A stretch of 64,000 nt of DNA from Schizochytrium sp. TIO01. Its lineage: Eukaryota > Protista > Bigyra: Labyrinthulomycetes. This document shows, piece by piece, positions 38,250 to 61,838 of the stretch. Made by a program: the position numbers and the translations under genes. Within the stretch, counting starts at the first letter, position 1, and each line of letters starts with the position of its first letter. The notes under the pieces were generated by a model, which saw only the letters and a program-made list of their open reading frames with translations, was not told the DNA's origin and made no database searches. Location of the stretch: NCBI GenBank assembly GCA_004764695.1, contig SMSO01000034.1, positions 3,720,001-3,784,000 of the forward strand. Direction: 5' to 3'.

Positions 38250-39198
38250 ATGCAGGCTACCAAGGTACTTGTCGCATGTGCGGACTGGCTTACGCTACCA
38301 AGCAGGACCGCACAGATTTTCGTAGTACCTTGAAGTTCATGGTGAAAAGGTGAAAATGGGAACGACTGGAATTTTGTTAACAAGTCGGAGGTTTGCAAAA
38401 CCTTTATCGGCGAAAGTTGCGGCAGTGTCGAGATTGAAAACTCCATAGTAGTACAAGTGTTCGGGTCCCCCACCGGAGAAACTTTAGCAACAATTTCCCC
38501 GGGAGGCAACTTGAACGCGACAAAGTTTCCTATGCATACTGAGAAGTTGCTCGATAAGGACTCCGTTGAGTTCCTTCTCGCCATCAATGAGTGAATGAAT
38601 GATATTGTGGTGAAGGTTTCTACTGGTCAGTACGTGCAATCCGGAGAGCAGGAGCAACAGAACCGAGGTACCAGACCTGGCAGGAAGAACTAGAGTACCA
38701 GGAGCGCATGGAGGAGCTCAAACTAAAGAAAGCTTGCCGAGATGCCGAAGAAGTCCGCCCGGTTGAGGCAGACCCAGGCAGAGAATTCCTTCGAAATGAT
38801 GGCCGCTTACGGAGGCGACGAGTCTGACCGTGACAAGATCCACTGCATGGATTACCAGTGCAATATCGTCGTTTTCTCCATTGGTGATTCCTTGCTTGCT
38901 TCAGGATATCAGAGAAGGTCGCTCACAAATGCAGAGTGGCCGCGCAAAGCAAACCATTATGGATGCACAGAGAGATTACCATCTCTCTGAAGTTGCTTTG
39001 CGATTGCTGGGCCGCCCTGCACGCGACAAGGAACCTCCCAAGTTTGGAATGAAACTCTATTTTGCCAAGTACGGCACCACGCCTCCCAAGCGCAGCCAGT
39101 TCGTGGATGGCGCGCCTTGCCAAGTCAATTCTTATATTGCCAAGGACCTTGACCTTCTTGAGCAAGGCATTCATGCATTCATTCATTCATCAGTGTAT
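38250..39198 (+). pseudogene. Decayed KilA-N-domain gene of large-DNA-virus type
   Basis: Frames joined by hand give MQATKVLVACADWL/YATKQDRTDFRSTLK/GENGNDWNFVNKSE...TISPGGNLNATKF..TEKLL..SVEFLLAINE*..DIVVKVSTGQY/WQEELEYQERMEELKLKK/...DRDKIHCMDY.NI/...LSEVALRLLG...KFGMKLYFAKYGTTPPKRSQFVDGAPCQVNSY..KDLDLLEQGI. G-x-LNATK...EFL...IVVK matches KilA-N. There is an internal TGA (38592) and several frameshifts. Confidence 0.65.
39096..39198 (+). repeat. Direct repeat copy 1 (87-bp unit + 16-bp CATT microsatellite insertion)
   Basis: CCAGTTCGTGGAYGGCGCGCC...AAGGACCTTGACCTTCTTGARCAAGGCATTCAT...CAGTGTAT recurs at 40996-41082 with 6 mismatches, all transitions. Confidence 0.95.
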
Positions 39199-39493
39199 CC
39201 AATAAAGCTCTGCGAGTAAAGAAATCGATGAAAGTTTCTAGATTGTTAACACTCATATAAAACGAAAATGTAGTACCTCTAGATCTTCCTGCACTCAAAA
39301 TTGAATTGGAGGAGAGTGATGAGTCAGTCATCCATGCGTCATCAAAACCCTCTTTCCACCTTTGGTTTTTCATAGGTACCCTTTTATTTTGGTTTTCACC
39401 ACTCAAAAGAAGACGGTCACCGCTGACTAAGGAAGTTTCGGATTCTTTTATAGAGACAAAAGTGAGAGTGTGAAAGAAGAGGAGGGAGAGAAA

Positions 39494-40923
39494 ATGAGAA
39501 AGGACAAAAGCCGCCAAAGCCGCAACAGTGCGACGACAAACGGGGGCGCGACAGGAGCCAAAGCGCCAGGCAGTCGCGGGAGTGCGTCGTTCCGGAAGGT
39601 CGGTATTGGGCGTTTAGATCCCGTCCCTGAGAATAACGCGATGGAGATTCAAGCAGACCTGGACGATGCGGAGAGCAGGCGCCGCACAGTTCTACAAGTA
39701 TTTGATGATACGTTCGATCAGCTCCAAAGAGAAAAGGAGAAGATCAAGCAACTTGAAGAGGCGGCTGATGAGGGCAACGAACAGGAGATCTTTGACAAGC
39801 TATTTGGTTTGAAGAAAAAAAACTGAAGAACGTTGAAAATTACTACGATAAACTAATTGAGCACCAAGCGGCTCTCAGACGTGCAGTAGAACTTCACATC
39901 GGATTAACGAAGGCGGCCACTCAGGAGGTCCAAGACCATAGGGTGTCACTCAAACTGATCACACACGGTGATAAGCGGTATTTTGAGGTCAATGGTTAGA
40001 TCGAAAGATCGAAGTATAGTACTGGCGTTCGTCAGAGCGTCTACTATGCAGCAGCTGACACGGGTGGAACGTACCTCACCTCGGTCGATGAAGAACCTCA
40101 CGATGCTCATCGAAATGCTATATACTATGATGGAAACAACCTCAACTTTAAGCTTTTCTTTTGTGACGAAAAGGCGGCCAGACAATTTGCAGTCTTGATT
40201 TCCAATGGCCGGAGTCAGCAAGTGAACGCGGAGGTGTCTAATTTGGAGGAAACGGTATTCCCTCAAGACCTCCGTAACATTCTTACGACGATTATGATAC
40301 TACGCATGAACCAGACTCGCCTGGTATCTCCCACGCATCTTCAATCTCTAGCAAGACTTTGGCCGACTTGTCGAGTAACCTGGCCAGATTTCAATGCATT
40401 GAACGTTCTGATTTAGTGGCGCGTGGCAGAATACAAGTCTGTCACCTTGTGGATAAGAACGAAGTTAAAATCATTGAAGGTTTCTCTGATGATGACAATA
40501 ATAAGTTATGTTTTACCCCGACTCTTCACGCTAACCTCGATGGGAATTGGAAGAGGGACGGATATACCCCCCCCCCCCCCCCCTGACATACTGATCGAGC
40601 CCGTTTTAGGGACGCGAGAGGGCCTCGTTGTTACCGCTCCGGGGGTTATTGAAAACCCTGGATTCACCGATGACCAACTAGAGGAGCGTGCTTTGGTCTG
40701 GCTCAAAGTGAGCTTTCCTTTCAAAGAAGACTTCATTCTTTTTGGGAATCTACTCAAATTTGGTAGCATCGTTGATCCCGAGGAGGACCTACAGTCGTGG
40801 TGTTGGGTTATCTACACTTTTGTCCACGTTCTTGACAAAGATCAGTTTATGAAGAATGTTGATTGGAAAGCAGAACGCACGAGGGAGACATGGGAGGAAA
40901 GGGGATTTGATCAAATAAATTAA
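39494..40923 (+). pseudogene. Crinkler (CRN/CR)-type effector with HNH-like nuclease domain, disrupted
   Basis: The joined ORF has a coiled-coil header, then YFEVNG*IE...GVRQSVY..A...AIYYDGNNLNFKLFF.DEKAA.QF / DYD...DSP...SSISS...FQCIE...VCHLV...DDDNNKLCFTPTLHANLDG / ...LKFGS...TFVHVLDKDQF..NVDWKAE.T..W. This tracks the oomycete CRN C-terminal domain as recalled (GVRCRxY, AIWY, DYDP, YQRIE, ESCHL, NNRLALSRxxHxxxDG, LKEGS, TFVHVxD.xxF...WK). Lesions: A8 frameshift (39815-22), TAG (39997), frameshift near 40290, C17 run (40567-83). Confidence 0.78.
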
Positions 40924-40995
40924 CCGTCTGAACTTTAAAAAATGAAAATAAATTATCATTAAGGCAGAATGTCTCCGGACCGTTTATATTCTCAA

Positions 40996-41082
40996 CCAGT
41001 TCGTGGACGGCGCGCCTCGCCAAGTCAATTCTTATACTACTAAGGACCTTGACCTTCTTGAACAAGGCATTCATCAGTGTAT
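40996..41082 (+). repeat. Direct repeat copy 2; encodes QFVDGAPRQVNSYTTKDLDLLEQGIHQC, followed by I-stop
   Basis: Starts exactly 1900 bp after copy 1 and retains the likely original stop codon of the KilA-N gene. Confidence 0.95.
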
Positions 41083-42231
41083 ATAATTAACAAAACAAAA
41101 TCATATTTTTTCTCTGTAGAGTTATTTTTTTATTATCAATTTCCCGTTTCCGCTATTGAAAACACTGTACTAAGGCCTTTAAAGAAATACAACTTCTAAA
41201 CTGCCCGATTTTTGTTTTCAATCGACCCAAAACTACACCTTATTCAATACAGAGCGACTCTATGGTAGATAGTGAGTTTTTGCCACCTTGTGTTAAGAGC
41301 AACTGAGCGCAAGTAGAGCGGAGTCTCGCAAATGACTTCATTGTTTACTTTGCAAGGCTCTAAGTGATTGCAAGTCGCAGCTGCCTGAAAAACGATTTCC
41401 TTTTCTTTAAGAAAAATGACCAGCGCACAAACGAATGTAAGCATGGAGACTCCAAGGGTCAGTACTCTGCATGGGGCACTGTTCGCAAGGAGAAGAGATC
41501 ACTTTTCATTTTCCTTCTTCGTTTTTGTGTTAATTATGTCTCCCTTGTTTTCCGGTTTCTGTTATTACATTAATTATATTAAAACGAAACTTTGTGTATT
41601 TATTTATTCTGAAATGGTTATTGTGAATCGATTGTTGGGTCGGGGTGAACAGCACCGATCTCGTATGCTTTGTGTAGTTGTCGAGCCTTCCTGAGTAGAA
41701 TTATTGCAGAGATTAAGAGCATGGGCAGAGACAGAGGCATATAATTGACGCTACTTTCTTTGAATTTACTGTTGTACTGCCTGTACTTGTCCATCCAAAG
41801 TTCTGAGACCCGCTCTATAGTATTAAAAGGTAAGAAAAGAAGAAACAGTGCTTTTTGTTGCAACATGGACTCAGCACATGGACTCGAAAGATATAAAGTG
41901 ATTTCGTAGAACTTGTCTGTGATAGTTGAAAAGGTGATGATCTCTATTGACACGATTGCAGAAAATTAATTCAAAGGTTTTCTGTTTGATACAAAAGGTG
42001 AGTTCACTTATGTTTCAACTATGTGTAACAAATAACATGACATCTTTGCAATTCATGTGCATATGACAAGCGCGCAGATTCAGATTACAAATTAAGATTA
42101 CGCAGTAGTTGCAAAAAAATGTTTTCTAAATGTGTTGTTAGATATACAGCAAAAGCCTAGGCGACATGGGAACGTGACGATGGCATGATAACGTGAGCCT
42201 AAGAAAGGAGGCAAGCAGTATTTCCAAGATT

Positions 42232-42588: not shown

Positions 42589-43435
42589 GGTGTCTAACTT
42601 ATTTGATCTCGTTAATCTCAAACTTGCAAGAATGCAGGGTAAGACCTTGTTTTAGAGAAGCGGCGGCTCTGATCTTGTCTCGCGAATAAAATATATGAAA
42701 GCAGTGGTGCTCAGTACACTCGCACAGGAGCAACAAAGCGAGCGCTCAACGCTCCCGACCGCACGTCTACCCAGCAAAGCTTACAGCCCTCTTGCGAGGC
42801 TACAAGACCCTTGCGACCCAATTCACAAGCGAGTCAAAGTCCTGCGAAGTTGCACTAGTAGAGTTTTGCAGGAGCTCTTGAATAATCAATCAGCAGCAGC
42901 AGTAGAGCCTTGTTTATCTCTTGATCCATCCATGGCTTTTTCAAAAGTAGTCTATTTTAATTAAAAGGCTTATTGAGGTGGGAATGCGGGGAATGGGGAA
43001 TGAGGGGAACCGACTGAACGTTGGGTCAATTGGGGCAAATGACACACGATTCTGTTTAAGTCGATCAAGTCCCATTATGAAAACGCAGAACCTGAATCGT
43101 AAGCCTGTTGGTGAGTTTTATTCGCCAACGGTTGAGACCAAAGGTGCTTTGACAACCTCGAAGCTTGCTTGCGCCAAGTTGACGAAGTTCAAGCGCTGGG
43201 CCAGTTTCGCTTTTGCGCGAGCTGCCTCAGTCACCATAAACTGGGATCGAAGATTGAACGACCGTTGAAAGCAAAGTCATCGCACGAAAGTCAACTGCAA
43301 AGGAAACGAAAGTCACGGCGCTCAAGTCTGGCCTACGGATAGACAAAAGTGGGGTTCAGGCATATTTGCTATCCAATTCAGGAGTTTGCAGTCAATCAAC
43401 TTATCAGGCGAAGTCAAATGTCACAAGTTTGCAAC

Positions 43436-46400
43436 ATGAAAAACGTCCTAATCTATGCATTGATCATCGTGATTCTTGGTGTCGCCGGACAGTCTGATCA
43501 CGTTGGTACAGACACTGTAGCAACTTCTGCCGCAGAGGAACTGTATGCGACCATACCTGAGGCACTTGATGGCATTTCAGATGACTTCTATCACAACTCA
43601 AGTGTTGAAACTCAATCAACTGCTCCTTCAGGAGGCGCAGGAAGAGTAAGTGAAGACGCCAGTATCAAGTGGAAGCGCAAGGAGGTATGGCTGCAACTTG
43701 TTCCAGGGACGAATGGCGAAAACTATACCGATCTTAATGCTATCTCTGCTGCAGAACAAGAGGTTGAGACAGTGGCTGTTAACTTTTGCGAGACATATGA
43801 GCTCGATCATACTCAGTGTGAAGAGGTATCCCAGCAGATTCGCGAAAATGCGCACAAATCACCTATAGGCGACTATCGGCTTGCGCCTGCAGTGGTGGAT
43901 CGAGCACTTCATGTCGAGATGTCTCTGCGCGACCCAACGAATGGGGAAACTTCTCAGGTATCACTTCATGTTGAGATTGACCAGAACCCAATTGAGGCTA
44001 CGCAAAAGTTTTGCGACGAGAGGGGTATATCCTTGGAGAGCTGTGAGAGCCTTGCGAACCAGACATTGCAAGGGTGGAGGCTGATCAGGGAAAAATCACT
44101 GCGAGCTTTGCAAAAGCGATTTGAAATAGGCTTAAACGCTGCAAACAGACTTGGAGATGGATCCGAAATGAAGTGGTCCGATGCAATCCTGGCACAACAT
44201 CACTTATCGGAGGTGGTGCAAATGAATCCAAGCAGCTGGCAAGCCTGGTATTCTTTGGGTAACATTTACAGTTTGGCCGCGTCTGATTCTTGGTTGGCCA
44301 ATATATTTCAGGAAAAGGACTCAACGATTGTGATGAAGAAATCTTTGGCGTGCTTTGAAGAAAGTCTCAGTATTCTTAACAAGAACTTAATTCCCAATTT
44401 GGATGTGGCACGTGCCACCTTACTGGGGTTTACTGGCGTGATGCGTTTCTATGCAGATGATGTAGATCTCGGCCGGGTGCGTCTCAAAGAGGCCATCGAA
44501 ATCTCGCGAGAGAACTTTGAGGCTTATGAGCGTGATTTTGATGATCAGTCAGCAGATGAAAACTATGGTGCGCTTAGAGACTTGTGGAGAAAGAAATGGC
44601 TGAAACATGTGAAAGACTTGATGACGCTGGAGGCTAATGTGGACAATGAGTTTGCCCTGGATAAACTCATTGAGCCAGAAAGCTATATTTCCAACCTTAC
44701 AGAGCGTGAGAAGCATGCGCTCGAAATGTACCGGGTTTTGCACTTTCCCTTCGTTCTAGAAAGCTCTGAAGACATAGATGGTCGTGTTCACACAGCTGCA
44801 TTTCAAAGACTTGAGCGCCTCTTGATGAAAGTGCGCACTTCTCCAGATCGAATTGGTGATCTTGATGGATACTTTGGCTTTTACTCTGTATACTCGGGTG
44901 CCCTGGAAAATTCCGTTCAAGTTAGAGAATACAGAGACAAGCTCGGTACACTGCACCGTCTTTCGATGCCGAGTCTTAACTATGTCTCGCCCCACTTACA
45001 ACGGTTGCAAGCATTACAAGAGCAAGGTGATATGATGGACAAAAATAAAAAGTTGCGCGTAGGATTTATCTCAAGCTTCTTTTATGATCATTCTGTGGGG
45101 AAGTTGCTTTGCGGAACGATCTCTCAACTTATTGACAGGGATGAGTTCGAGGTGGTGGTAGTGTCAACTGGTAGTATGAGACATGTGGCGAAGCGCGCAG
45201 GGGCCTGCTATGAAATGTGGGGAAAGCTTATTCGTGCCGAGAGCGTTCAGGATGTGAGCTACGGGCTTGCTAAGGGCGCACATCTGGTTTTTGAAGATAC
45301 TCCAGATGGTATTTTGCAAGGCATGGGGGCTTTAGCGGACCTTGAGCTGGATGTGGCAATCTTTGGCGAAGTTGGTCTGAACTTTGCAACCTACTTTTTG
45401 TCATTTGGGCGTATAGCCCCTGTTCAAGCCGCGTTCTGGGGACATCCTCTCACGACAGGCATGGGTTCATTTTCGATGGACTACATGATTACCTCTCGGA
45501 AGTTTTTTGCAAATGAGGGAAATGTTCCTGTGGAAAAAACAGCTGACGAAAGATTGCAGCTATGCGCCTCGGAACTCCATCTTTGGAACACCACCTGGGC
45601 ACCCTTTTCAGAGAGCTTAATCTGTACAGAAACTCTAGGAACCTACTTTGCAAAGGTTCCCCAACCTAGTGATGAAGATATGACTGAGGCACGAGAGATT
45701 CTCCGCGAGGCTTTGTTGCAGAGGAACTGGACCAAATCCTTAGAGGAGACTAATCTCTACTACCTTCCTCATAAGTTGATGAAGTTCCATCCGCGAAATG
45801 ATGCTCATCTTCGTGGCATCGTTGAACGCGACCCGAATGCAATCCTTGTGTTTTCGTCTGGTGAAGATCATGCTAACCAGAACATATTCTCTGTGTATAC
45901 GCATGGACGAAGACTTTTGTTGAATCGAATGGGCATTGCACCGGAGCGTACAATTTGGCTACCTGCTTTGCCAACGCCTGTATTCTTAGCGGTAAGCAAG
46001 ATTTCTTCTGCTGTACTTGAATCGTTTGGGTCCTTTGGTAGTGGAGTTACTGCTCTCGAAATTTTTGCTCTTGGGGTTCCGATGGTTTGTATGCCGAATA
46101 ACCAACTTGTCGGACCAAGTTGCGGTGGCATGTATAAGCAGATTGCAGCCCGGTCCGAGGATAAAGATGGTGTGAAGTCCCTGGAGGCGCTTACGTGCCT
46201 TGACGAAAAGCTCAGCGTCTCATCGGATGGCAAAATCAGCTCTTGCTACATTGAAGCAGCATTGAGATTGGCAGACACATCTTCCGGCTTACGAGGGCGT
46301 GCAGGAAAGATGCTTAAGGATAGTCACATGCATTTATATGAAGACGAAGAGGCTGTTCAAGAATGGAGCGACATGCTGCTTGCTCTAGGGAGCCAGGCAC

Positions 46401-46666
46401 GGTCATTCGACTTTGCATCATCTTGGTCTGTTCCAGGGTTTTGCACGGAGTCCCAATGCTCATCTGGGGTTCAAGACGAGGATGTCAAAAGCACCGACTT
46501 GAAGGACAAACAGAGACTTGACTCATTAATGACCTCCTCAGTATGGAAAAAAGTATCACCCCCTGCACCAGGTCCTCTCCCCCGGCTGCCGAAGAAGAAT
46601 AATACCTTCATTCCACACGTTGTGCAGCTCAAAGACACTTTTAAGAACCCTGCATGGCAGAATTAA
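43436..46666 (+). CDS. GT41-family (O-GlcNAc transferase/SPINDLY-like) glycosyltransferase with TPR-like region and N-terminal signal peptide
   Basis: MKNVLIYALIIVILGVAG signal and TPR-like NPSSWQAWYSLGNIY. GT41 motifs: KLRVGFISSFFYDHSVGKL, LDVAIFGEVG, RIAPVQAAFWGHPLTTG...DYMIT, KLMKFHP, FGSGVTALEIFALGVPMV. An alternative ATG lies at 43418. Confidence 0.88.
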   Translation: MKNVLIYALIIVILGVAGQSDHVGTDTVATSAAEELYATIPEALDGISDDFYHNSSVETQSTAPSGGAGRVSEDASIKWKRKEVWLQLVPGTNGENYTDLNAISAAEQEVETVAVNFCETYELDHTQCEEVSQQIRENAHKSPIGDYRLAPAVVDRALHVEMSLRDPTNGETSQVSLHVEIDQNPIEATQKFCDERGISLESCESLANQTLQGWRLIREKSLRALQKRFEIGLNAANRLGDGSEMKWSDAILAQHHLSEVVQMNPSSWQAWYSLGNIYSLAASDSWLANIFQEKDSTIVMKKSLACFEESLSILNKNLIPNLDVARATLLGFTGVMRFYADDVDLGRVRLKEAIEISRENFEAYERDFDDQSADENYGALRDLWRKKWLKHVKDLMTLEANVDNEFALDKLIEPESYISNLTEREKHALEMYRVLHFPFVLESSEDIDGRVHTAAFQRLERLLMKVRTSPDRIGDLDGYFGFYSVYSGALENSVQVREYRDKLGTLHRLSMPSLNYVSPHLQRLQALQEQGDMMDKNKKLRVGFISSFFYDHSVGKLLCGTISQLIDRDEFEVVVVSTGSMRHVAKRAGACYEMWGKLIRAESVQDVSYGLAKGAHLVFEDTPDGILQGMGALADLELDVAIFGEVGLNFATYFLSFGRIAPVQAAFWGHPLTTGMGSFSMDYMITSRKFFANEGNVPVEKTADERLQLCASELHLWNTTWAPFSESLICTETLGTYFAKVPQPSDEDMTEAREILREALLQRNWTKSLEETNLYYLPHKLMKFHPRNDAHLRGIVERDPNAILVFSSGEDHANQNIFSVYTHGRRLLLNRMGIAPERTIWLPALPTPVFLAVSKISSAVLESFGSFGSGVTALEIFALGVPMVCMPNNQLVGPSCGGMYKQIAARSEDKDGVKSLEALTCLDEKLSVSSDGKISSCYIEAALRLADTSSGLRGRAGKMLKDSHMHLYEDEEAVQEWSDMLLALGSQARSFDFASSWSVPGFCTESQCSSGVQDEDVKSTDLKDKQRLDSLMTSSVWKKVSPPAPGPLPRLPKKNNTFIPHVVQLKDTFKNPAWQN

Positions 46667-48154
46667 AGGTTTAAAGTCGGCCGGCTTTATTTATTAATCG
46701 AGGACCAAACTAATTAAATTCAAATGAAATGAGCTTGAAAGGATAACCGCATCTGTTACATTTTCTAGTTTTAGTTTAGCACCCACCCTTTGCAAATCAA
46801 TTGCAGACTGAATTTAAATTGGGGCTCTGTGTGGCGTCATTGCTCTCAAAGTAACTATTGCAGATCAACTTCTGCAGCGAAGAGTTCTTCAAAGCAACGG
46901 ACCCTGGGGAATATCTACTTACTTTGAGAAAGCAAAGACTCAAACATGTTGTTACCTAAGCTGTGTACCACAGGTTTACTAGGAGCTATTAGTATCTGGA
47001 AAGCACAAAGTTTCTGGATACAATTAATTAGGTTTTCATCCTGTCAGCGGGAAAAAAAGAAAATTGACGAGTCTAGCGTTCGTGAGGAATGGAGTAGGTC
47101 TCTCTGAACGTGTTGTTCTTTGTGAAGAATCCTGTTCAATAATTAGGACCAAAGACAGAAGGTACTATATGCAGTCTCAGCTAGATTTAGTAAAAAATAA
47201 ATGACAAAGTCAGATTCTTGGTAAAAGTATTCAGTAATGATGGTAGTAGGCAGTGACCTACGTTCGCAGTAGCTAGTATGGAATCTTCTTTGTGCAAAGT
47301 TCCGTTCTAGGTCCCATAAACAGTGGGTAGAGTTAATGGTATTTAGGATGTTTTAAAATTGCCAGGGCCAGGGATCTTCAATTCTTTAAACATTACACGA
47401 AAATCCAACCTGAAGAGAATCATTGAATAGACCTTGGGGTCAACATCTCTAAAAGGAGCCGGACCAAGCCCTTTGAGACCATAGGTTTTCATCTGTCTCT
47501 CCTTCATGCATGTTAGAATATTGGTGAAGACACTAGGTCACTAGCATATGATAGTATGTAAAACACTATCAGGTACTGAGTCTTGCTAGATCTCGGGGTT
47601 GTCCCACCATCCCACCATTACGTTATTCCATGGTCATCTTTGGTCAATATAACTTAGTCAGGCGTATGGTTAAAATTTCAAGCGAAGCATTCGTGAGGTG
47701 ATTTGAAAAGAACAGAAGGTACGCATTTGGGACTATAATACTCTGTCTCCACTGCAGACAAAGAGATGATTTCGAAAATCTATGGAGTCTTTCGAGCTTC
47801 TGATATTTTAATGAAATAAAATAAAATAAAATAAAATACCATATGTATATATAAATATTATGATTGATTGAGAGAATCTCAGGATGTAAGACACTCTGAC
47901 ACCATGATTTGAATGATCCATTTTGAGCTGGTCAGTATTCTTGAAAGATCAAATTATTGTAAGAGCTGCTTTGGTCCATGAAGTTAATTGTGGCTGTTGT
48001 TGACTTTAAAACCTCATCTAGACGCTCAAAAGCAGCCAGCCGCATACTCATACGCTCTTATTTCGTAGCAAACGCGGCTACAATTTCGAGCCATCGCCAG
48101 ACTGAATATCTTGCTGGATTAAGTAAAAGAAAACTTGAAGAAAAGAAAAAAAGA

Positions 48155-48483
48155 ACGAATGAACGAACGAATGAATGAATGAATGAATGAATGAATGAAA
48201 AAAGATAAAATTAGATCAAATAAAAACACTCTACCTAAATTAAAAAAATATCACTCACTTCGTGAGGAAAAGCCGAAGAAATGATTGGGAAAGAGTGGAG
48301 AAATTGGGCTTTCAGATTTGTTAATCAACTGGTGAGTGCGTGAACCGAAGAACAGTAGCTCGATCAGGCCCTCTCCGTCCGCCGCAATGAATACATAAAT
48401 GAATGACTGAATAAATAAATGAATGAATAAATGAATGAATAAATGAATGAATGAATGAATGAATGAATGAATGAACGAATGAA
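48155..48483 (+). repeat. Two (GAAT)n tetranucleotide tracts (48155-48198, 48387-48483)
   Basis: Direct reading. Confidence 0.9.
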
Positions 48484-50085
48484 CCCTTTTACAGCGTCCA
48501 CTCTTCTCAACTTTGTAACCTCATGCTAAGCAAGGAAGCGTCCGCGATGTGGCTCGGAAAACTAAGTTTCGCTTATGTCTCCTTACCCCATCGCTACCGC
48601 TCTTTCGTTAGTTTCTTTTAAAGCGTCCAGCAAAACGAGGCAGAGAACTTGTTATTAAAATTTAAGGGCTCTGAGACTTCTTCTTTTCTTAAGCTCATCT
48701 TCCGGTTTTACGCGGCTTAACACGAGTGTTCCTTCTTCTGGTTAGATCGACTCCTCCATGTGCAGTTGCCACTTCGGACTAGCTAGGGAGGTACGTAGCA
48801 GGGAGGAGGCTTCTCTTCTGTCTCTTCTGGCCGCAAAAAGGTGCTGGAGGTGCCTCCCTTAATAATCATTCTTCAGAAAGCGGAAGAACCATTTCTTAAA
48901 TTTCATAGAAAGAAAGAAAGAAAGAAAGAAAGAGATACACTGTGGCACGGAAAAGAACATCCCGCAAGAAACAGATGGTCGCTTAGCGCACGTGCAGCAG
49001 CAGCAGCTGGCCTGTATGTCATCGTTAGATCATGAATAGTCAGGCTATCAACAACTTGGGCCTTGCTGAGTTGAAGTGGCAAGCAGTCGCGGCGATTGAC
49101 CCTCTTGAGGACGGAGCGCCGAAGCGGCCACCGGCTGCTCCTCTCGAGTTCGGGGTGCTTCCTTCGGCTCAGCTCCTCCCTCAAGTTTAAACTTCGTTTC
49201 TGTGCCGCAAGCACGGCACTTTTTGTTCCTGTTCTTGTTCTTGTTCTTTTTCATCGTAGTACTAACAGTTGCTGCTGTCTAAACAGCTTCGCTAACAGCT
49301 TCGCTAACAGCTTCGTCGTCGTCGTCATCAGAACAAAGGCTCCTGCGTTTCAAGGGTCTTCTACAACTTCAAGCTCGGCTACAGCTTCACGCTCGACGAC
49401 TTCACGGTGTGCACGCAGGCAAGGACGCAAGCGTAAGCAAGGACGCAGGCTAGCTTCCGCAGCCTTCCAGTGCTGCTGTTCCGTCGTCCTGATCACGAAC
49501 TAGCCGTGAATCGTGAATTGGGAACCCGGGTCCTTCGGTTGTGGGCGCAAACTAACAAGGGACCCTGCCTACCTACCTGATCAAGAGTCATGGGTCCATG
49601 CATTTCAAGATCAAGGTTCTCGCAGTCGAGCTCCTCCCCGCTGATCCTGGCAAGTCTGCCTGTAGCTTGGGTCGGCAGAAGCTGCTCGCAGGAGTTTCAC
49701 GATCGAGTTCCACAGGCTCGACTTCGAGGTTTTTCAGAGGTTGGCGAAGGCAATTAGAGCAGCTCAAGCTTTGTCGGAGCAGCTTCAACTTCCGAGGGTC
49801 CTGGAAACTGGAACCATTCATTTCAGAGGAAGAAACTATAAAGTTAAAAACGCGCACCTTTTTCATGGAGACCAGCAATCAATTGGCCAGCCCCTTTGGG
49901 TCCCCATGCGGTGCGTGAACGAAGCGTGAACGAAGCGAGGACATGCCAAAATAAGGCTTGCCAATCGAAGTCTGTCCATGGCACCCAATGCTTGCTGATG
50001 CTTACTGACCGTTCCATTTCAACCAACCACTAGTTCTTACCTAGCTAGCTAGAGTGTCGCCAATCGTTGATCGAACATGGAGAGG

Positions 50086-50617
50086 GAACGCGAGAACGCG
50101 AGAACGCGAGAACGCGAGAACGAGAGAACGGCAGCGCTACTTACGCCTCACGCCTGTATGCATGTATCTATGACCGTAGGAAGGTTCCTCCTTACTCATA
50201 GTCGAGGCCAGAGAAAGAGAAAGAGAAGAGAAAGAGAGAAGCCCTTCCTTCGTTTACTTTCTTCCTTACCTACCTATCGCATGGTAGGTAGGTGCTACTG
50301 GTTCCAATCTTCCTTCCCGTAGCGTGCCGCCACGCGACGGCTGCAGGCGTGCTGGCGTGCTGGCTGGCTGTGTGGCTGGCATTCATTACAAGCATGCAAG
50401 CGCCGCGACGCTGGCCGTGAGGCTTCGAGGCTGTGTGGCTGGCTGCGAGACCTTTCCCGCTGAGCCTTCCTGCTGTTTCCATCTGTGGCCTCCATCCAAT
50501 CAATTCATGCGCAGGAGGGAGGAGCATCTACGCAGTGCCACAAGAACGAGAGAACGAGAGGACGGGAGAACGGGAGAACGAGAGAACGAGAGAACGAAAG
50601 GACGAGAGAACGGGAGA
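50086..50617 (+). repeat. Two clusters of the 8-bp minisatellite GAGAACG(C/A/G) (about 50086-50130 and 50542-50617)
   Basis: Direct reading. Confidence 0.85.
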
Positions 50618-51319
50618 AAGAAAGAAATAAGGAAAGTAAAAGGGAACTATAATAGTAAGGCAAGAGGAACTACTATGCCTATCTCTTTCTCTTTTACTAA
50701 AATAAATTTCAATTAATTAAAAAAATTAAATCAAAATAAATAATATGTATAAAAGATGAAGAAGGGGACAAAAGGTTTTGGGCGCTCTGCTGCTTCCCAC
50801 GGGAAGTCGATGGCCTACCCGAGTGAGCTCTCTCTCTCTCTCATTCTCAAACGAAAGAAGCGTTGTCTCGAGGTCCTTCAAGTCGGAGCGATCTCTCGTA
50901 GGCAAGTTCAAGAAGCCCGCAGCAGCATTACATTTATTTGCATTCGCAATCTCCGCATGGAGCCAACCCAAAGTAAGGAGATCTCAGGCAGCGCGTCTCT
51001 CGAAAGGACGGTGTCGATGAGACGATATGCCTCAATAATCGACACATGGCGCAACAAACAAACACAATGAAGAAAGAATACATACGTACTCACACAAATG
51101 AGTCAATCTACTAAGCTGGTTCAACAGCAGGGGCGTCGCGTCTTCTGAGACACACAGAAAGAGACAGATCCAACCAAATCCATCGCTCGCTCTCGAGGCG
51201 TGCGGCGCCGCTTCTTCGCTGCAGTCCTCTTCTCTCTCTCTGTCTCTCTGTCTGTAAGTTGGTCGCTCAGTCTATTCGCTCGCTCAGGTTCTCTCGCCGG
51301 CGGAGATGAATAGCGATAG

Positions 51320-51430
51320 ATGGATAGACAGAGAGATATAGCGAAGAGAGATAGAGATGGAGAGATAGAGATATTGAGTGATCGAGAGAGAGAGATAAAG
51401 AGAGAGAGAGATAGAGAGAGGGAGAGATCA
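51320..51430 (+). repeat. GA/GAGATA purine-rich microsatellite
   Basis: Direct reading. Confidence 0.85.
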
Positions 51431-51754
51431 TCGACGGCCTGCAGCCCTGAAAAGGAGGCATGGGAGGGGCCGAAGGAAGGAGACCAGGACCTCGCCGCTT
51501 AGGGCCCTTCAAGTGAGACTCGAGACTCGAGACTCGAGGCGCCTTAATTTTGAAACGAAACCAAAGTGGAAGAAGTTCGAGGTGGCCAAACTAACCCCAA
51601 CTGAGCACAGACCGCTTCTCTCTGCTAGCGAGTACCGCTACCAGCGCTGCTTTTGCTAGCAGTGATGGCTAGCTAGCTAGGTAGGGTAGCACTGTCGTCA
51701 TTCATTTCATGGCAGTGGCTGATTATGATACCTGTACATCCATCCATCTATATA

Positions 51755-51840
51755 TCGATCGATCGATCGATTGACTGACTGACTCACTCACTCACTCACT
51801 CGCTTACCAACTCACTCGCTTACCAACTCACTCACCTACC
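51755..51840 (+). repeat. Compound (GATC)n(GACT)n(CACT)n microsatellite
   Basis: Direct reading. Confidence 0.85.
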
Positions 51841-54800
51841 ACTGGCACGCCTGAAGGAAGAAGCAGGCAGGAGCTCTTCCTGCTAAGCGCTACGAGGCAG
51901 AGCAGCACACGGCAGGCAGCGCAGGCCTCTCAGGTGCGACGACTCACAGGCCGCCCGCCGCCTCAAGGAATCGGTCGCTCAGGCAAGCAGAGGGGGAGTG
52001 GAGGTGAGACGGTCGGCAGCCAGCCAAACCAGCGATGGATCGGTCGGGGGGCCAGTTCAACTCCATCAGCAGCATTGGCGGCAGCAGCATTGGCGGCAGC
52101 AGCAGTCGTAGCAGAGGAACCATCGATTTTTCGACTTGATTGCGGCTCCTGAGAAGAGCAGCCACATACATAGATAGATGCGTAGATACATACTATTTAC
52201 TTACTACTGGTTTCTTTCCTTTATGCCTACATTCGCTCCTACTTACGTACCGTAGGAAATAGGTAGTACTATGGAGTGTTCGAGCTGAGGAGGGGGCTCC
52301 GCAGAGAGTGAGGGAGAGGGAGGGAGAGGGGGACCTCACAAAGCAGCAAGCTGTGGATGAGAGAGGGGGACCCGCCGTGAGAGTGGGAAAAGGCCAGCTC
52401 TGAAGACACCCGCGGTCGGAAACACTAGCTCTGTCTCCACTGGACAGGGTTTTCTTGTTGGGGGTTCCTCAGACTCAAAAGCTTCTTCAGCGAAGGTGGT
52501 CGAGATACTCGGGACCTACACTGTCTCTCTTGCTTCAGGAACTCACTGTGGGAAAGTGAGAAACCCGTAGCCCTCACACTGAGCTTTTGAATTTTTATTT
52601 CGAAATAAATCGACTTCCTTCCGACAAACCAAACTTTGGACAAAGAAATAAAACTTTCAAAGAAAATAAAATATTGAAGAAAGATTCATTTGACTTTTAT
52701 TCTCTAGCTAGCTAGAGCTAGCAGGAAGGATAATTGCTGCCTCAAATAGGTACCATGCTCCTGCAGAGGAATTCGCTAAGAAAACTTCTCGTGCTTTCTT
52801 TTCTTTTTTTCTATATGCAGACGGAGGTAGTAGTAGTAGGTACGTAGGTCCTCCTCAGCTAGCCTTATCAAACCAGAGATCTATAAGAGGAGTTACGCAG
52901 TGCTGCACCGATGATTGAGCACAGAAAGTGAAGAAGCTCTGCAGATTTTTATTTTATTAAAAAAAAAGTACGTGATTGGGAGGATAAGGCGCCTCAATCG
53001 ATGAGTCAATCTGTCAATTGACATCTGAACGGCTGCGAATGCGAATGCGAATGTGTGTGTGTGAAAGAGAGAGAGAGAGAAGCACTCACACACAGAGAGA
53101 GAGGACTCCATTGCAATATTTGGCATGTAAAAACATGAAAACGAATTGAGCACAAGCCTTGAGTTTAATTTAATTTGTTCACATAATGCTGAGTGTCTCT
53201 CTCACAAGTCAGAATTAATGGGTTAGACTCTTTTAGCAGCCTGAGTAAGAACTCAAGCCAGAACAACCATTTACTCAGCCCTGGCCGAGTGAAGGAGAAT
53301 ACAAGCCTGTTACTTGAATGAAAGGAGGCCCTTACTTGCTTACCTATCCACCTACGATTGCCTGAGTGAGCGGTTGAACAAATGAATGAATGAATGAATG
53401 AATGAGTGAGTGAGTGAATGTACGCGAATGAATGGATATGAGTGGATAGGAACGCGAGTCGTGCTGCTCTCAACAAGAACGGCCATCTCCTGCCTTCCCT
53501 TTAGCCGGAGTCAGCTTTGCACTGCGAAAATTGGATTTCAATCTTTGTGCCGTACTCCGCCTTCTTTACTGTTCTGAAAAACGTGGCTTCTTCTCTTTCC
53601 TCTTCGCCAAGCGCAGGCAATCCAAGGAGTGAGTGCATAGTGCATGTGGATTCAACTTTGGTTTGCGTGAAAAGATCTTCTCAAGAAGATCGATCTTCTT
53701 CTCTCTCAGATGAACGAAAGATCAATCAGGTGTCGTCTTGCAAGCAGAAATCCACATCTCCCGCGACTCGACTCAGAGGATGTCTTGAAGATCACTCCTT
53801 CCTCAGGCCTGCGCAATCCCGCCCAACTGAGAACCTCCTCCAAGCCAAGCAAGCTTATGCTTGAAAGCCTGAACTTGAGTTGGGCTTGACAGCAATCAAA
53901 CTCAGCTCAAGCCGGGACTTGGAATTATTTGATGGACGCTGTGGCGTGAAGGCCGCCCGGGAGCGCCTCCGAGTCAGCAGACGGATGGGAGGCGAAGGCG
54001 TTAGCTACAGATGGGTGGATAGACAGGCAGATATAGAGAGATAGAGATAGAGAGAAAATGGATGGGGAAATAGATAGATCATCAATCAACCAATTATCAA
54101 TCAATCAATCAATCAATCGATCAATCCATTCTGAGTGACAGCCCAATAGCTAGGAAGCTACTAGATGGTCAACTAGCCAAAGAACTACCTGACTGGAGCT
54201 CTTTGGCGGCGTTATCGCTGCGACGCTCCAAGATTCGAGCGTGCATTTGTATGTTTGGTCCTATCTCAGACTTGGATTGAGAGTTATGAGTAAGTGAGGA
54301 AGTAAGTACCTTCCTACTTGACTTACTTACCTACCTACCTGCGTATTTGCCTATTTCCCGACTAGCGCAATACCCATCTTAGAAAGAATGAAAAGGGATT
54401 TCAACCTCGAATAAGCACTCCGAAGTGTCGCGAGATGGTGTTCTTCTTCTCGCATCAGCAAGCAGGCTTTCAATGAAAGCACTCGCTTAAGATCTTCCGT
54501 TGCCTGGAGCTTGAATAAAAGCCACAGCCTGCCTAGATACATCAACCAGTTGATTTTAATAAATAAATAAACAAATATAAATAGATAAATAGATAAATTA
54601 ATTGATTAATTGATTAACCGGTTTACCAATTGAATGCATTTGTTGGTTGGGTGGTTCACTCCAAGCTATTCATCCTTCTCTGGCGGTGCTCACTCCGTTA
54701 TTTCACTCAGTAGTTCACACTCTCTACCTCGCACTAACTCCTCTGCGGCAGACAGGCTACGGCAGTCACCTCCCTCGCTAGCCAACCGCATTGTCCGCGT

Positions 54801-57800
54801 AACTTTTTTCGGGTTCGTGGCGCTTGTTCAGTCTCTCAGGGCGGCTCAAGGCCAACGAGAATCTCCTGTAACGGGTCCACAGCCAGCGAATGCAAAGCAC
54901 ATTTAGGGCGTAGGCACAGCCTAAAACTCGCAGAACCGTTGCTGGTGTCCCTCGCCTACTCGAAGTTACTTATCAATTATCATTAAAGTATCACTCACTC
55001 TTCTATCATAATTTAATTATTTGAATTAGTTTGTTCATTTATACGGATAATGAAAATAAATAAAAATAGAAAGGTGTCATGAAAAAGGAAAAAGTGTCAC
55101 GAATTGAGGGGAAGGAAAGGTGAAAGACGCGATCGCTTGGTTCGCTGGAAAGGCTGATTCTACAAACCCAAGAAGAAGCCACGAATTCTGCGCTCGTTTG
55201 TTGCAAACGAGCAGTTGCGTCCATCCAGACTATGTCTCTATGTCTCTGTTTTGCTGGCTACGATGGTGAGTAACTAACTTCTGGCGGCGGCAGCAGCAGG
55301 TTCTTCAATCAACTGCCTGCCTGCCTGGCTGACTGACTGCTTGCTTGCTTGCTTGCTTGCTTGCCTGGGTGTTTTCGCAGTGCTTGCTGTGCAGCCGCAG
55401 CGCCTCCTCGACCAGCTTGAGCTCCGGGTGCTCCGCGCACTAATTAAATCTATCTTTTACAATCTGATCCATCCTCGAGGCGAAATTGCGGTTCTTCTTC
55501 GCGTTGGCGCAAAAAAAGATCGCGATCGCGGCGAAAGTCACTTTCTCTTTCCTGCTTTGGGCAGCAGATAGGTCTCATCTACCTACTTACTACCTGTCCA
55601 CAGTGCTTGGTTTTTGAGAATGTTGCGCTGCAAAGGCGGTCATTTCATGGCCCGTGGCTGGCAGGCGCCATCGCAATTTCGCAAACGAGCAGCAGCTTGC
55701 GTTTTCTATCAATCCGGAATTTGTACGCGTCTGGCTGGAACCTAGATTCTCGCAAGCAGGCAGTCACAGCACGGGGAGATAAGGATACCTAGCTAGAGGC
55801 ACCAAGCAGGCGGCAAAGCTGCTTTAAGTTTTCATTCCAATTCTAGCTCTAGAGAGAGATAAAAGCGAAAGCTAAACAAAACAAGGAAATGAGTAAGATA
55901 GTTTTTTTTATTTTTTTTTTTTAAATTTAAATCAAGGAACACCAAATTTTATAATAAAATGTTTTAAAGGTGTACTTTCTTAATACTGCGTAAAATAATT
56001 TTGTTTAGCTAGCTAGAATGGCAGACACTACTGCTCAGAGTAGTACAGCAGCAGCCTTCTCGTTGGGCCTCCTTCCTTGGAAACCAAGCCACTCAATCTC
56101 CTTCTTCCGTCTGTGATGATTTCCAACCTCTAGCTAGCTAGACAGCCTGAGAAGCAAATGACAGTACAATCGGCGAAGAGCACGAAGAAGAGAGAATAGT
56201 TTAGTTTCTTCTTCCTGAAAGCAGAGGAGGAAGGTCGGGAGGAGGAAGGAAGAAGAGGCACCCCTTTCTACCAGGCAACAGACAGAAGAACAGAGGCAAA
56301 GGCAGAGAGAGAGAGACAAGCGTGCGTGCGTGCGTGAGTGCGTGCGTGCACCCGTTGGAGAAGCCGCCGCCGAACTCGCCTTTCAACTAGTATTTACCAA
56401 ATCTTTGTTATTGTCATTCAAAGTTATTCGATTTCAATGAAAGCTGCTATGAGATAATACCCCAAATCAATTAAAAAAAAACAAACCACGAAGAATACCA
56501 GAACAGAACATTTGTCTATTATTCTTTTCCTGCTCCAAGAATGAAATATCTATCCTTAGGCTCTTCGTTCTCTCGCGGTGTCTTGTTTGAGTGATCTCGA
56601 TACAATCCATCCTCTCTGTATAAAGACGTCGAGCGGCTTCCTCCACAGAGGTCACGCTGCTCAGGTCATGACTCGTGAGGAGCGGTGGCGGAAGACAGTT
56701 GATTTAATAAATAGGGCTCAGACAGAAGCCGCGAGAGCAGTTAATGACTGAGCGCGTGAGCCGAGTTCTTCTTCTTCTCCTTCTTCTTCTACTCTTTCTG
56801 GCACCAGGATCTTCTAGGTAGCTAGCTAGCTGCCTTTACCTTCTTTCGCTCTCTGTTCCCTTTCTTTCTTTCCCTCCTTCCATCAGAGCCTCCAACTTTC
56901 CATCGAAAGATTTTCTTACGCAGAGACAATATATGACAAATCCTTCCTCCTTCCTCCTCTCTGCGCTGTTCTGGTTAGGTCAAGTCGAGCAAGCAGGCAA
57001 AAGCAGGCAAAAGCAGGCAAAGCAGGCAGGCAGGCGGGCAGTTCTTTGCTTTTCAGCTCCCTTCGACGGTGGATTTTGCCTCCGCGGCGCTTGGAGCTCT
57101 TATTCTTAGCTCCCTGAGCGCGACTTTCTTGCATTTTTCAAGCGAGTTCATCTTCGGGAGACGAGGGCCCTCAAGTTTCCGCTCCTTACTTCTTCATGAT
57201 TAGTTTTGCTGCAAGCGAGTTCAAGCAAGTTCAGAATTCCTTCCTCGCCGCTATGAACAGAAGAGGACGCATAGAGAGATAGACAGAAGGTACACAGACT
57301 CTCGTGCAAAGATGGATGAATCCAAGTCGCCGCCTCCTTCTTCTTCGTTTCCCTCTTTACCAGCTTCAGCTCGCGGGAGCCCAAAGCTTTCACGGCAGAC
57401 AGACAGGACAGACCTCTGACTGAGCTGGCTTTGCTCCTGTTTCCGAGAGAGAGAGAGAGAGACAGAGAGAGAGAAGCGCCCACGTCGGCCTCGTCGGGTT
57501 CAGTCAGGGCCTTCGCGCAGAAGAACTTGCTTGGCCAAGCTCGTCCATTCTCATCGCGCGTTGCGGAGATTGATGGAGAAAGGGGGAAAACGTGTCCTTC
57601 GGCGGTCAGTCAGAAAACAACGCAACGACTTCTTTCTTCGAAATTAAAAAAGTGGTTTGTTCATTTCGAAAACAAGGAACAGTCGACGGGACTTGAGCGC
57701 TGTGTCCAACTAAACCGCCGAGGAGTAGGAGGTGCCTACCTCAGCCTACCTGAAACTTGGCTGTTTGTCTACCAAATCGCTTCCCCTCCTAGCACACCAT

Positions 57801-58028
57801 GATTTTCCATTCGAACTAACGATCATCCGCACAAAAACCAGGAAGAGGTGGTATAGCGGTAAAAGTAATTCGTTGCGCGCAAATGTGGCAAACGACCGCT
57901 CGCCTGGAGCTAGCTAGCTAGTGCCCTCGCTACGTGAAACCGGAGGCGTTCGATCCGCCCGCCCAGCTTTTCGAAATTTCAAGTTACCTCCTCAGTTTCT
58001 TGTGCTCGATCATTGCGATGGGCACCAA

Positions 58029-58115
58029 CCTACCTACCTACCTACCTACCTACCTACCTGCCCAGAAGAAGAAGAAGAAGAAGGAGAAGGAGAAGGAGAA
58101 GGAGAAGGAGAAGGA
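58029..58115 (+). repeat. Compound (CCTA)n-(GAA)n-(GAAGGA)n microsatellite
   Basis: Direct reading. Confidence 0.9.
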
Positions 58116-58488
58116 GGGCGTCCTTCAAGCTGAAGCTGCGTTTTGCCGGCTTCGTGAAAGAGTTACACGTGCGTAGGTTCTTAATCTCTTTTTCACTCTC
58201 TCTCAATCGATTTCAATGATCTCTCTTTCAATGATCTCTCTTTCAAACGAAGGACAGAGGAGCGAAAGAGCAGAAGATCGAAAAGGCGAGAAAGCCGAGT
58301 CACCGTGATTCGTTCGAGGGCGGCTCGGGTGCTGGCTGGCTGGCTGGCGGCCTGCCTCCCCCTCGTAGCTCAGCGCAGAGAGGGCGGCTCGGCTCGATCG
58401 CGACGAACCTCGGCTGCGGAGCCGCGCCAGACATACCCGACGGTGGTGCCTTGACAGGAGCGGCCTCGGCAGAAAGAAGCAGCGGCAG

Positions 58489-58527
58489 CAAACAAACAAA
58501 CAAACAAACAAACAAACAAACAAACAA
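58489..58527 (+). repeat. (CAAA)n microsatellite
   Basis: Direct reading. Confidence 0.95.
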
Positions 58528-59077
58528 GCAGATGCGTACTACGTGAGAAAGGACGCGTCGTTTGCACCATTTGTCGTTGCTTTGACAGTCAATACAAAAC
58601 CAAAGAATTCTATTAATAGAATGATAGATAGGCGCGGTCTTTCATCTGTTCTCATGGCGTTTGGAGCGAAGACAGAGGGCAGCTTTTGGCCTCTTGCTTC
58701 GCCAAACAGCCCACAGCTGGGTCCTGGGGCTGCTAGTAGCTCCGGCAGGACCGTTTAGCATAAAGCCTAAGAAGCTAGTAGCAGGTAGAGTTCCGTGGCC
58801 GTTCCGATGCATCTAGTGGTACAAAGGAAGCTTGAAGGAATGTGGAGATTCTCCATCCTCGTTGCAGATTCTCCATCGCCCTCGTCTGCGGCGGCGGAGG
58901 TGCCTTCTCCTTGGCTACCAAGGCATACATAGTCAGTCAGAGGCAACGAAGGCCAACTTGCAGATCAGTGCGGAGGTCTGCGAGGCAGAATGGCTCGCTC
59001 GAAGGAGGAGAAGAGGCTGAAAAGAGCAGCAAAGATCAACCAAGCAACTCGTCTTAGGTCTCGTCTGAGTCAGGTGT

Positions 59078-59108
<31 letters not shown>

Positions 59109-61801: not shown

Positions 61802-61834
<33 letters not shown>
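61802..61834 (+). repeat. (CTGT)n microsatellite
   Basis: Direct reading. Confidence 0.9.

Positions 61835-61838
<4 letters not shown>

What the first reader, a model, noticed from the sequence alone, without database searches (positions are those of the whole stretch)
39494..40923. Hidden Crinkler-like HNH effector gene in a non-oomycete stramenopile, lacking the LFLAK header
Seen: four frame fragments join into one ~475-aa protein with HNH-like residues still in place (VCHL at about 40437-40448; NNKLCFTPTLHANLDG at about 40497-40544). Known: this motif series resembles oomycete/fungal CRN C-terminal domains, which normally follow an LxLFLAK/HVLV ubiquitin-like header. Here the N-terminus is a basic segment plus coiled coil. 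Inference: a header-swapped CR toxin, possibly used in intragenomic or antiviral conflict rather than plant pathogenesis. Two lesions are in homopolymers and could be sequencing errors, but the TAG at 39997 and the shift near 40290 are not.
Basis: partly seen in the sequence, partly recalled or inferred. Interest (0 to 1): 0.7.

Follow-up and report, generated by a model that had tools for sequence, protein, structure and literature searches.

The report
Dead copy of Crinkler-type nuclease family
This is a broken copy of a small, transcribed gene family in a likely marine thraustochytrid; intact members carry the predicted DNA-cutting (HNH) module of Crinkler toxins behind a coiled-coil head with a possible phosphatase-docking motif, likely for DNA conflict inside the cell, which extends a known kind of protein.

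Summary
Observation confirmed. Four frame pieces (39494-40923) match five transcript-derived proteins at 81-85% in the core. The core is homologous to Crinkler-headed oomycete proteins and a Batrachochytrium protein. A relative's HNH domain folds like the VcaM4I, TagI and Cas9 HNH domains. The window copy is a true pseudogene. The poly-A shift stands in 7 of 8 runs laid, the TAG in at least 4 and the 40282 shift in 5; only the poly-C break is unverified. There is no LFLAK header. A coiled-coil head is the norm in this branch and also occurs in free-living chytrids, so no swap event is shown, and helical-headed CR proteins in free-living eukaryotes are published. Points I did not find in print: a conserved L-x-x-V/I-x-E motif (PP2A-B56 docking consensus) in 6 of 6 complete heads; a head that differs between copies more than the core does; structural relatives in Feldmannia species virus; and a repeated unit of about 2.9 kb. 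Likely role of intact copies: an intracellular conflict nuclease (untested).

The parts
39494..39826 (+). Piece 1: basic low-complexity N-terminus and first helix of the coiled-coil head; second Met at 39641 is where the transcript-derived paralogs start
   Evidence: helices 2-41 and 65-108 in the model of P0002
39614..39631 (+). LDPVPE: fits the PP2A-B56 docking consensus [LMFI]xx[ILV]xE, after a basic patch; same place as LS[TS][VI][DE]E in five relatives
   Evidence: consensus from PMC10970375 passages; binding untested
39815..39822 (+). Break 1: frameshift in an 8-A run
   Evidence: gap-free contigs in 7 of 8 runs
39823..40290 (+). Piece 2: second head helix and a ferredoxin/acylphosphatase-like alpha-beta domain (paralog residues about 115-201)
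   Evidence: weak PDB matches to acylphosphatases, TM(target) 0.63-0.67, E about 0.07
39997..39999 (+). Break 2: in-frame TAG
   Evidence: letter-perfect contigs in 4 of 8 runs
40282..40290 (+). Break 3: frameshift outside any homopolymer
   Evidence: gap-free contigs in 5 of 8 runs
40278..40586 (+). Piece 3: acidic/Ser linker and HNH core (His, Asn, His and Asp motif residues present)
   Evidence: fold of relative P0090
40567..40583 (+). Break 4: frameshift in a 17-C run; length not verified
40579..40923 (+). Piece 4: conserved C-terminal alpha-beta domain of the family, to the stop
39093..39174 (+). Direct repeat, copy 1 (82 nt): the last ~30 codons of the broken upstream gene
40993..41074 (+). 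Direct repeat, copy 2 (91% identical), just after the nuclease gene; also present in other copies of the unit
   Evidence: contigs of about 92% identity run across it
38346..39219 (+). Second broken gene upstream; its tail resembles the C-terminal motif of phage KilA-N proteins (weakly supported)
   Evidence: independent profile test negative
38329..41201 (.). Approximate extent of the stretch shared with other loci; right edge seen in 4 of 8 runs, left edge in 1 run only
   Evidence: loose ends at 41201 (X1, X6, X11, X17) and 38329 (X3)

Best explanation
The window holds a pseudogene copy, broken at four places, of a small multicopy family whose intact, transcribed members are predicted HNH DNA nucleases of the Crinkler/CR (CRN13-like) type that likely act inside the protist's own cell in conflict with foreign or selfish DNA. 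Shown: the pieces, three of the four breaks in independent runs, intact paralogs, homology to Crinkler-headed proteins, no LFLAK header. Predicted: a layout of coiled-coil head, ferredoxin-like domain, HNH core and C-terminal domain. Inferred mechanism: the HNH core binds a metal and cuts DNA as its relatives AeCRN13/BdCRN13 are reported to damage DNA; the basic N-terminus would bring it to the nucleus; the head would be the control or targeting part that holds a toxic nuclease in check until triggered, possibly through PP2A-B56 at the LxxVxE motif. Copies likely arise by duplication of a ~2.9-kb unit, exchange parts by recombination and die often (birth and death).
For: Five transcript-derived members, four full-length. 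91 relatives at E<=0.001; 2 of 91 pass the Pfam Crinkler header cut-off and 3 of 91 pass HNH_2. P0002 versus the Pythium Crinkler P0080: 26% over 306 columns, E 6e-13. His in 81 of 91 rows, Asn in 90 of 91, Asp in 81 of 91; second His in at least 90% of 75 rows. Model of relative P0090 (pLDDT 95.6): best matches VcaM4I Z 8.6 (rmsd 2.5, 103 aligned) and TagI Z 6.9, then Cas9 HNH domains Z about 4, among 48,161 chains. No hydrophobic signal stretch at the N-terminus (by eye). Head 53-66% identical to paralogs against 78-100% for the core. A split copy among the transcript ORFs (P0004 and P0007). Relatives in free-living chytrids and a xanthophyte alga.
Against: No activity, location or target was measured. 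P0002 itself scores only E 0.13 on HNH_2, Foldseek finds no PDB match at E<=0.001 for either model, and the HNH fold test used a relative 29% identical to P0002. Canonical CRNs also often lack signal peptides (PMC5053185), so their absence does not exclude delivery to other cells. The transcript ORFs start after the basic segment and the LxxVxE motif, so these may not be translated in the intact copies. The uneven identity could reflect gene conversion in the core or chimeric transcript assembly rather than selection. The best structural relatives are viral, which fits a virus-side origin just as well.
Confidence: 0.58

Rival explanations
1. The family is cargo of virus-like or selfish mobile DNA: the nuclease serves the element (cutting host or rival DNA, or homing-like spread), and the window holds a decayed 2.9-kb remnant.
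For: Best structural matches are two Feldmannia species virus proteins, E 5e-16 and 7e-15. One of 2 metagenome loci has a tyrosine-recombinase-like ORF about 3 kb away (PF00589, E 5.5e-4, below cut-off). The neighbouring broken gene ends in a motif shared with phage KilA-N proteins. The nuclease gene is flanked by a duplicated gene end, and other loci share the right flank up to 41201.
Against: No relative found in viral contigs with 3 queries (exact-word scans, weak). No terminal inverted repeat or target duplication at the inferred edges, and no transposase or integrase in the unit. The KilA-type call failed an independent profile test. The other metagenome locus is too short to show context.
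Confidence: 0.22
2. Intact copies are delivered toxins, passed to prey, competitors or algal/animal substrates (for example through the ectoplasmic net), with the coiled coil doing the job of the LFLAK header.
For: Homology to Crinkler-headed oomycete proteins and a Batrachochytrium protein. CR headers of several folds were proposed to translocate (PMC5289972, section read). A fast-changing head fits a changing target.
Against: No Crinkler Pfam header or HVLV-type motif and no hydrophobic segment. Many relatives have little or no head at all.
Confidence: 0.12
3. The fold is kept as a non-cutting DNA-binding or regulatory protein.
For: Weak HNH_2 score; no activity shown.
Against: The His, Asn, His and Asp positions are kept across the family, as expected for catalysis.
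Confidence: 0.06
4. The window gene is intact and the breaks are assembly errors.
For: Two breaks lie in homopolymers; the poly-C length is unverified.
Against: Three breaks recur in independent runs from 3-6 studies, and 6 of 8 runs show a further 35-39-base gap in the same copy.
Confidence: 0.02

Closest known systems
CRN13-type Crinkler effectors with an HNH-like motif (AeCRN13 of Aphanomyces euteiches, BdCRN13 of Batrachochytrium dendrobatidis, Lagenidium CRN13; known here from PMC5289972 and PMC5053185 passages)
   Same: Homologous C-terminal region over about 300 residues with Crinkler-headed oomycete proteins P0080 and P0063 and a B. dendrobatidis protein; HNH motif residues kept.
   Different: No LFLAK/ubiquitin-like header or HVLV motif; coiled-coil head with an LxxVxE motif; separate branch at about 21-26% identity; host likely free-living. 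The named CRN13 sequences were not compared directly, so the 'CRN13-type' label is partly from recall.
CR (Crinkler-RHS-type) proteins with alpha-helical headers in free-living eukaryotes (Zhang et al. 2016; paper not held, known only through review PMC5289972)
   Same: Helical header on an HNH toxin domain, non-pathogen host, proposed role against invasive DNA.
   Different: I could not check whether this header or thraustochytrids are in that paper's tables; the B56-type motif is not mentioned in the section of the review that I read.
HNH domains of restriction endonucleases VcaM4I (6yex) and TagI (6ghs), and Cas9 HNH
   Same: Best fold matches of the family's HNH plus C-terminal part (Z 8.6, 6.9 and about 4).
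   Different: 8-12% identity; the upstream domain here is ferredoxin-like, whereas those enzymes carry modified-base readers (recalled).
Feldmannia species virus proteins B5LWM7 and B5LWG2 (uncharacterized)
   Same: Whole-core structural match, E 5e-16 and 7e-15, 21-23% identity.
   Different: Viral and uncharacterized; their heads and motifs were not examined here.
AACRNL (PMC12957317; abstract and Introduction read)
   Same: Crinkler-like toxin module with a degenerate targeting header in free-living eukaryotes, amplified with nearby mobile DNA.
   Different: ADP-ribosyltransferase rather than HNH; animals; hAT transposons, none seen here.

Membership tests
CR/Crinkler proteins, HNH (CRN13-like) C-terminal type | C-terminal region homologous to Crinkler-headed proteins | tested here: met
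   P0080 and P0063 among 91 hits carry PF20147 above cut-off; 26% over 306 columns, E 6e-13
CR/Crinkler proteins, HNH (CRN13-like) C-terminal type | HNH motif residues (His...Asn...His..Asp) | tested here: met
   present in the window piece and conserved in the family
CR/Crinkler proteins, HNH (CRN13-like) C-terminal type | HNH (beta-beta-alpha-metal) fold | tested here: met
   relative P0090: VcaM4I Z 8.6, TagI Z 6.9, Cas9 HNH; Foldseek blank; not tested on the window protein itself
CR/Crinkler proteins, HNH (CRN13-like) C-terminal type | Direct similarity to the named AeCRN13/BdCRN13 sequences | not tested
   not fetched; only a hypothetical B. dendrobatidis relative (P0083) was at hand
Canonical Crinkler effectors | LxLFLAK ubiquitin-like header (PF20147) and HVLVxxP | tested here: not met
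   no Pfam hit or motif in the window pieces or P0002; head modelled as two long helices
Canonical Crinkler effectors | Delivery into host cells and nuclear DNA damage | not testable with these tools
   needs experiments
PP2A-B56 LxxIxE docking motif | [LMFI]xx[ILV]xE consensus | tested here: met
   6 of 6 complete heads at the same position, relatives 30-49% identical; motif chosen after seeing the alignment; a match anywhere in 55 shuffled residues occurs in 2-29% of shuffles
PP2A-B56 LxxIxE docking motif | Acidic or phosphorylatable residues at positions 2, 7-9 and an upstream basic patch | tested here: met
   five relatives have Ser at 2 and acidic residues after; the window has Asp at 2 but none at 7-9; basic residues upstream in all six
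PP2A-B56 LxxIxE docking motif | Motif translated and exposed in intact proteins | tested here: inconclusive
   transcript ORFs P0002-P0006 start after it; four other branch members (P0010, P0011, P0105 and a P0018-type partial) include it in called proteins
PP2A-B56 LxxIxE docking motif | Binding to B56 | not testable with these tools
Mobile element (transposon or viral insert) | Shared ends with terminal repeats or target duplication | tested here: inconclusive
   shared right edge in 4 of 8 runs, left edge in 1; no convincing inverted repeat at the edges
Mobile element (transposon or viral insert) | Own transposase or integrase | tested here: not met
   none in 38329-41201; a recombinase-like ORF only near a distant relative
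KilA-N phage/viral DNA-binding proteins (upstream broken gene) | KilA-N domain and homology outside the search motif | tested here: inconclusive
   tail 43% over 54 residues with L017, but picked by the motif; no Pfam hit, pairwise E 0.27, profile test negative

The most novel reading that the evidence does not exclude
A distinct branch of Crinkler-type HNH nucleases in marine protists, carried in part by viruses or virus-like DNA, has a head that docks the cell's PP2A-B56 phosphatase through a conserved LSTVDE-type motif, so that a toxic nuclease is switched by phosphorylation (cell cycle or infection); heads are exchanged between copies while the nuclease core is homogenised.
Probability: 0.25. 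Interest if true: 0.72.

Novelty: new variant of a known kind. Interest (0 to 1): 0.4.

Why it matters
The window copy is dead and the general kind (CR-HNH with a helical header in a free-living eukaryote) is published. What is useful is a tractable family in a cultured, much-sequenced protist group that lives with persistent DNA viruses. It allows a direct test of what Crinkler-type nucleases do outside pathogens. If the conserved head motif binds PP2A-B56, it would be a concrete control mechanism for such a nuclease, and the Feldmannia virus relatives would point to viruses as carriers of the module.

Tried and rejected
Sequencing-error reading: rejected for three of four breaks. Stop-codon reassignment: one frame from 39796 to 40923 is closed only by two TAGs, but the HNH motifs lie in another frame and neighbouring genes read normally, so rejected. 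Tandem array: the 'goes back' joint in X6 is explained by the 82-nt repeat whose first copy lay outside the laid stretch. Expression of the broken copy: no RNA holder listed on record; runs X6, X11, X17 and X18 are only guessed to be RNA, so their cover is not used as evidence. Contig depth was not used as copy number. Homodimer job: no verdict. The Atlas gave no answer. Blank searches: PDB by sequence and by profile; PHROGs, PADLOC and NCBIfam gave no meaningful hit; viral contigs; prokaryote genomes. The whole-model wide fold search returned only generic coiled coils. Upstream broken gene: protein search blank, one weak viral hit, independent profile negative. The careful tree did not finish; the quick tree (74 rows; 8 near-duplicate or partial rows and all rows with short cores left out) was used, and no clade test was run. 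A helix N-cap remains an alternative reading of the LSTVDE motif. Literature: no paper held both Aurantiochytrium and crinkler or Feldmannia species virus and crinkler; crinkler with thraustochytrid gave 2 listings, not read. Zhang et al. 2016 and its supplements were not held and may already list this branch.

Full report
Observation. The breaks are an 8-A run at 39815-39822, TAG at 39997-39999, a shift near 40282-40290 and a 17-C run at 40567-40583. Two pieces, searched separately against 5.8 billion clusters, each found the same single protein, P0002 (425 aa, transcript-derived), at 85% and 81% identity. Its cluster has 5 members, 4 of them full length. The window pieces align to them in order. 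The paralogs' ORFs begin at the window's second Met (39641), so the first 49 residues are not confirmed as protein by them.

Are the breaks real? I laid 8 of 23 listed runs, from 7 studies. Gap-free contigs bridge the poly-A break in 7 of 8 runs (6 studies). Letter-perfect contigs hold the TAG in 4 of 8 (3 studies); 2 more have 1-2 unlocated differences. Gap-free contigs hold the 40282 shift in 5 of 8 (4 studies). The poly-C break is not verified: window-like contigs in 3 runs cross it with 22 letters on the right and show 2-4 gap letters. In 6 of 8 runs the same copy shows a further 35-39-base gap after 39675. One run may be the window's own source. The same runs also hold contigs of about 85-95% identity over the same places, which are other copies. 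So this is a shared, still decaying pseudogene of a multicopy family.

What the family is. P0002 found 91 relatives at E<=0.001 among 1.84 billion representatives. Of the 91, 2 carry the Pfam Crinkler header above cut-off and 3 pass HNH_2. Of 10 distant relatives looked up, 6 had organism names: a Pythium oligandrum and a Phytophthora oleae Crinkler, a Batrachochytrium dendrobatidis protein, two free-living chytrids and Tribonema. P0002 aligns to the Pythium protein at 26% over 306 columns, E 6e-13. The motif His is in 81 of 91 rows, the Asn in 90 and the Asp in 81; the second His is in at least 90% of 75 rows. A profile of 69 distant rows hits only the three core pieces among 2028 window fragments. 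Against this: P0002 alone scores E 0.13 on HNH_2.

Structure. The model of P0002 (mean pLDDT 87.6) has two long helices (2-41, 65-108), an alpha-beta domain (115-201), a linker, the HNH region and a C-terminal domain. Foldseek found no PDB match at E<=0.001; the weak rows are acylphosphatase/ferredoxin-like folds, which by size fit the middle domain. The wide search on the whole model returned only coiled coils. I therefore folded a natural 167-residue relative (P0090, 29% identical to P0002, pLDDT 95.6). Its best matches among 48,161 chains are HNH restriction enzymes VcaM4I (Z 8.6, rmsd 2.5, 103 aligned) and TagI (Z 6.9, rmsd 4.1), followed by Cas9 HNH domains (Z about 4); only 2 chains reached Z 5. 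Foldseek was blank for this model. In the viral library 2 matches passed E 0.001, both from Feldmannia species virus (E 5e-16, 7e-15).

The head. There is no LFLAK, HVLV or Pfam Crinkler header. In a quick tree of 74 cores the window's paralogs group with marine transcript and metagenome proteins (support 93), apart from the Crinkler-headed rows (midpoint root, no clade test). Every complete head in that branch is a coiled coil. Coiled-coil heads also occur next to the Crinkler-headed rows, in chytrid proteins P0077 and P0034, and many rows have almost no head. A swap in this gene is therefore not shown; heads vary across the whole family, as the review PMC5289972 (passages and section 11 read) reports for CR proteins. 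Between the window copy and its paralogs the head is 53-66% identical and the core 78-100%. This fits selection on the head, head exchange or gene conversion in the core; I could not separate these.

A conserved motif. Six of six complete heads (the window, P0010, P0011, P0102, P0105 and the L002 protein; the five relatives are 30-49% identical to each other) have L-x-x-V/I-x-E just before the coiled coil, after basic residues: LSSVEE, LSTVDE three times, LSTIDE, and LDPVPE at 39614-39631. This fits the PP2A-B56 docking consensus, in which acidic residues at positions 2 and 7-9 and an upstream basic patch help binding; the Cyk4 motif is LSTIDE (PMC10970375, passages). Cautions: I picked the motif after seeing the alignment. 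A match somewhere in 55 shuffled residues occurs in 2-29% of shuffles, and 17 of 91 hits have one in their first 55 residues. A helix cap is an alternative. The closest transcript ORFs start after it. Binding could not be tested.

Surroundings. The flanking genes look like ordinary host genes. An 82-nt direct repeat (91%) lies before and after the nuclease gene; it is the tail of a second broken gene at 38346-39219. A pattern from this tail found 16 viral loci; the 2 tested are KilA-N proteins, and one aligns at 43% over 54 residues. But a profile without the pattern did not find the window gene, so this call is weak. Other loci share the right flank up to 41201 in 4 of 8 runs; a left edge at 38329 appears in 1 run. 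No terminal repeat or integrase was found. Of 2 metagenome loci of relatives, one has a recombinase-like ORF about 3 kb away and one is too short.

Host. Likely a thraustochytrid. This rests on unchecked earlier notes for the same genome and on the general look of the window; I did not test it.

Mechanism. Shown: dead copy, intact transcribed paralogs, homology, no canonical header. Predicted: HNH fold and coiled-coil head. Inferred: DNA cutting, from conserved residues and from the reported HNH-dependent DNA damage by AeCRN13 and BdCRN13 (known through PMC5289972 and PMC5053185 passages; the primary paper was not read). Also inferred: action inside the producer cell against foreign or selfish DNA, with the head as a control or targeting part (0.58). 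Rivals: cargo of viral or selfish DNA (0.22), delivered toxin (0.12), non-cutting regulator (0.06), assembly error (0.02).

Novelty. CR proteins in free-living eukaryotes, helical headers and HNH C-termini are published (PMC5289972; PMC12957317, abstract and Introduction read). My searches found no paper joining Aurantiochytrium or Feldmannia species virus with crinkler. Term searches in three papers on thraustochytrid viruses (PMC12606086, 10.64898/2026.07.28.741200, 10.64898/2026.08.29.747986; matching passages only) showed nothing on this family. Zhang et al. 2016 and its supplements were not held and may list this branch. Verdict: a new variant of a known kind, interest 0.4. The B56-switched nuclease is the boldest reading left open (probability 0.25).

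Noticed in passing
window 38346-39219 (+): A second broken gene directly upstream, with other diverged copies in public runs; its tail resembles the C-terminus of phage KilA-N proteins, but an independent profile test was negative.
   Followed up: partly
window 38462-38520: A 59-base stretch skipped by contigs in 4 of 4 runs, while one run also holds a contig with it: an insertion polymorphism or a second copy.
   Followed up: no
window 39676-39714: The broken copy shows a further 35-39-base gap in 6 of 8 runs, so decay differs between strains.
   Followed up: partly
window 39796-40923 (+): Two of the shifts cancel, so one frame is closed only by two TAGs; the HNH motifs are in another frame, so this is a coincidence.
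   Followed up: yes
P0004 and P0007: Two ORFs called on one transcript number cover the two halves of a family member, each with an off-frame end: likely another broken but transcribed copy.
   Followed up: no
L003 3-1313 (-), 2904-3935 (+), 6819-8126 (+): A relative of the nuclease lies near a tyrosine-recombinase-like ORF, an unknown membrane protein and a glycosyltransferase 61 gene; possibly a virus-like element.
   Followed up: partly
BFVD B5LWM7, B5LWG2: Two uncharacterized Feldmannia species virus proteins are clear structural relatives, so this giant virus likely encodes Crinkler-type HNH proteins.
   Followed up: no
window 43343-46666 (+): An 1107-codon ORF with a signal-like N-terminus, weak TPR and weak glycosyltransferase 41 matches: a possibly secreted O-GlcNAc-transferase-like protein.
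   Followed up: no
window 17947-19011 (-): A 354-codon ORF with a signal-like N-terminus and cysteine-rich EGF-like repeats, by eye.
   Followed up: no
window 48000-64000: Gene-poor stretch rich in tetranucleotide and 8-nt tandem repeats, unlike the gene-dense first 47 kb.
   Followed up: no
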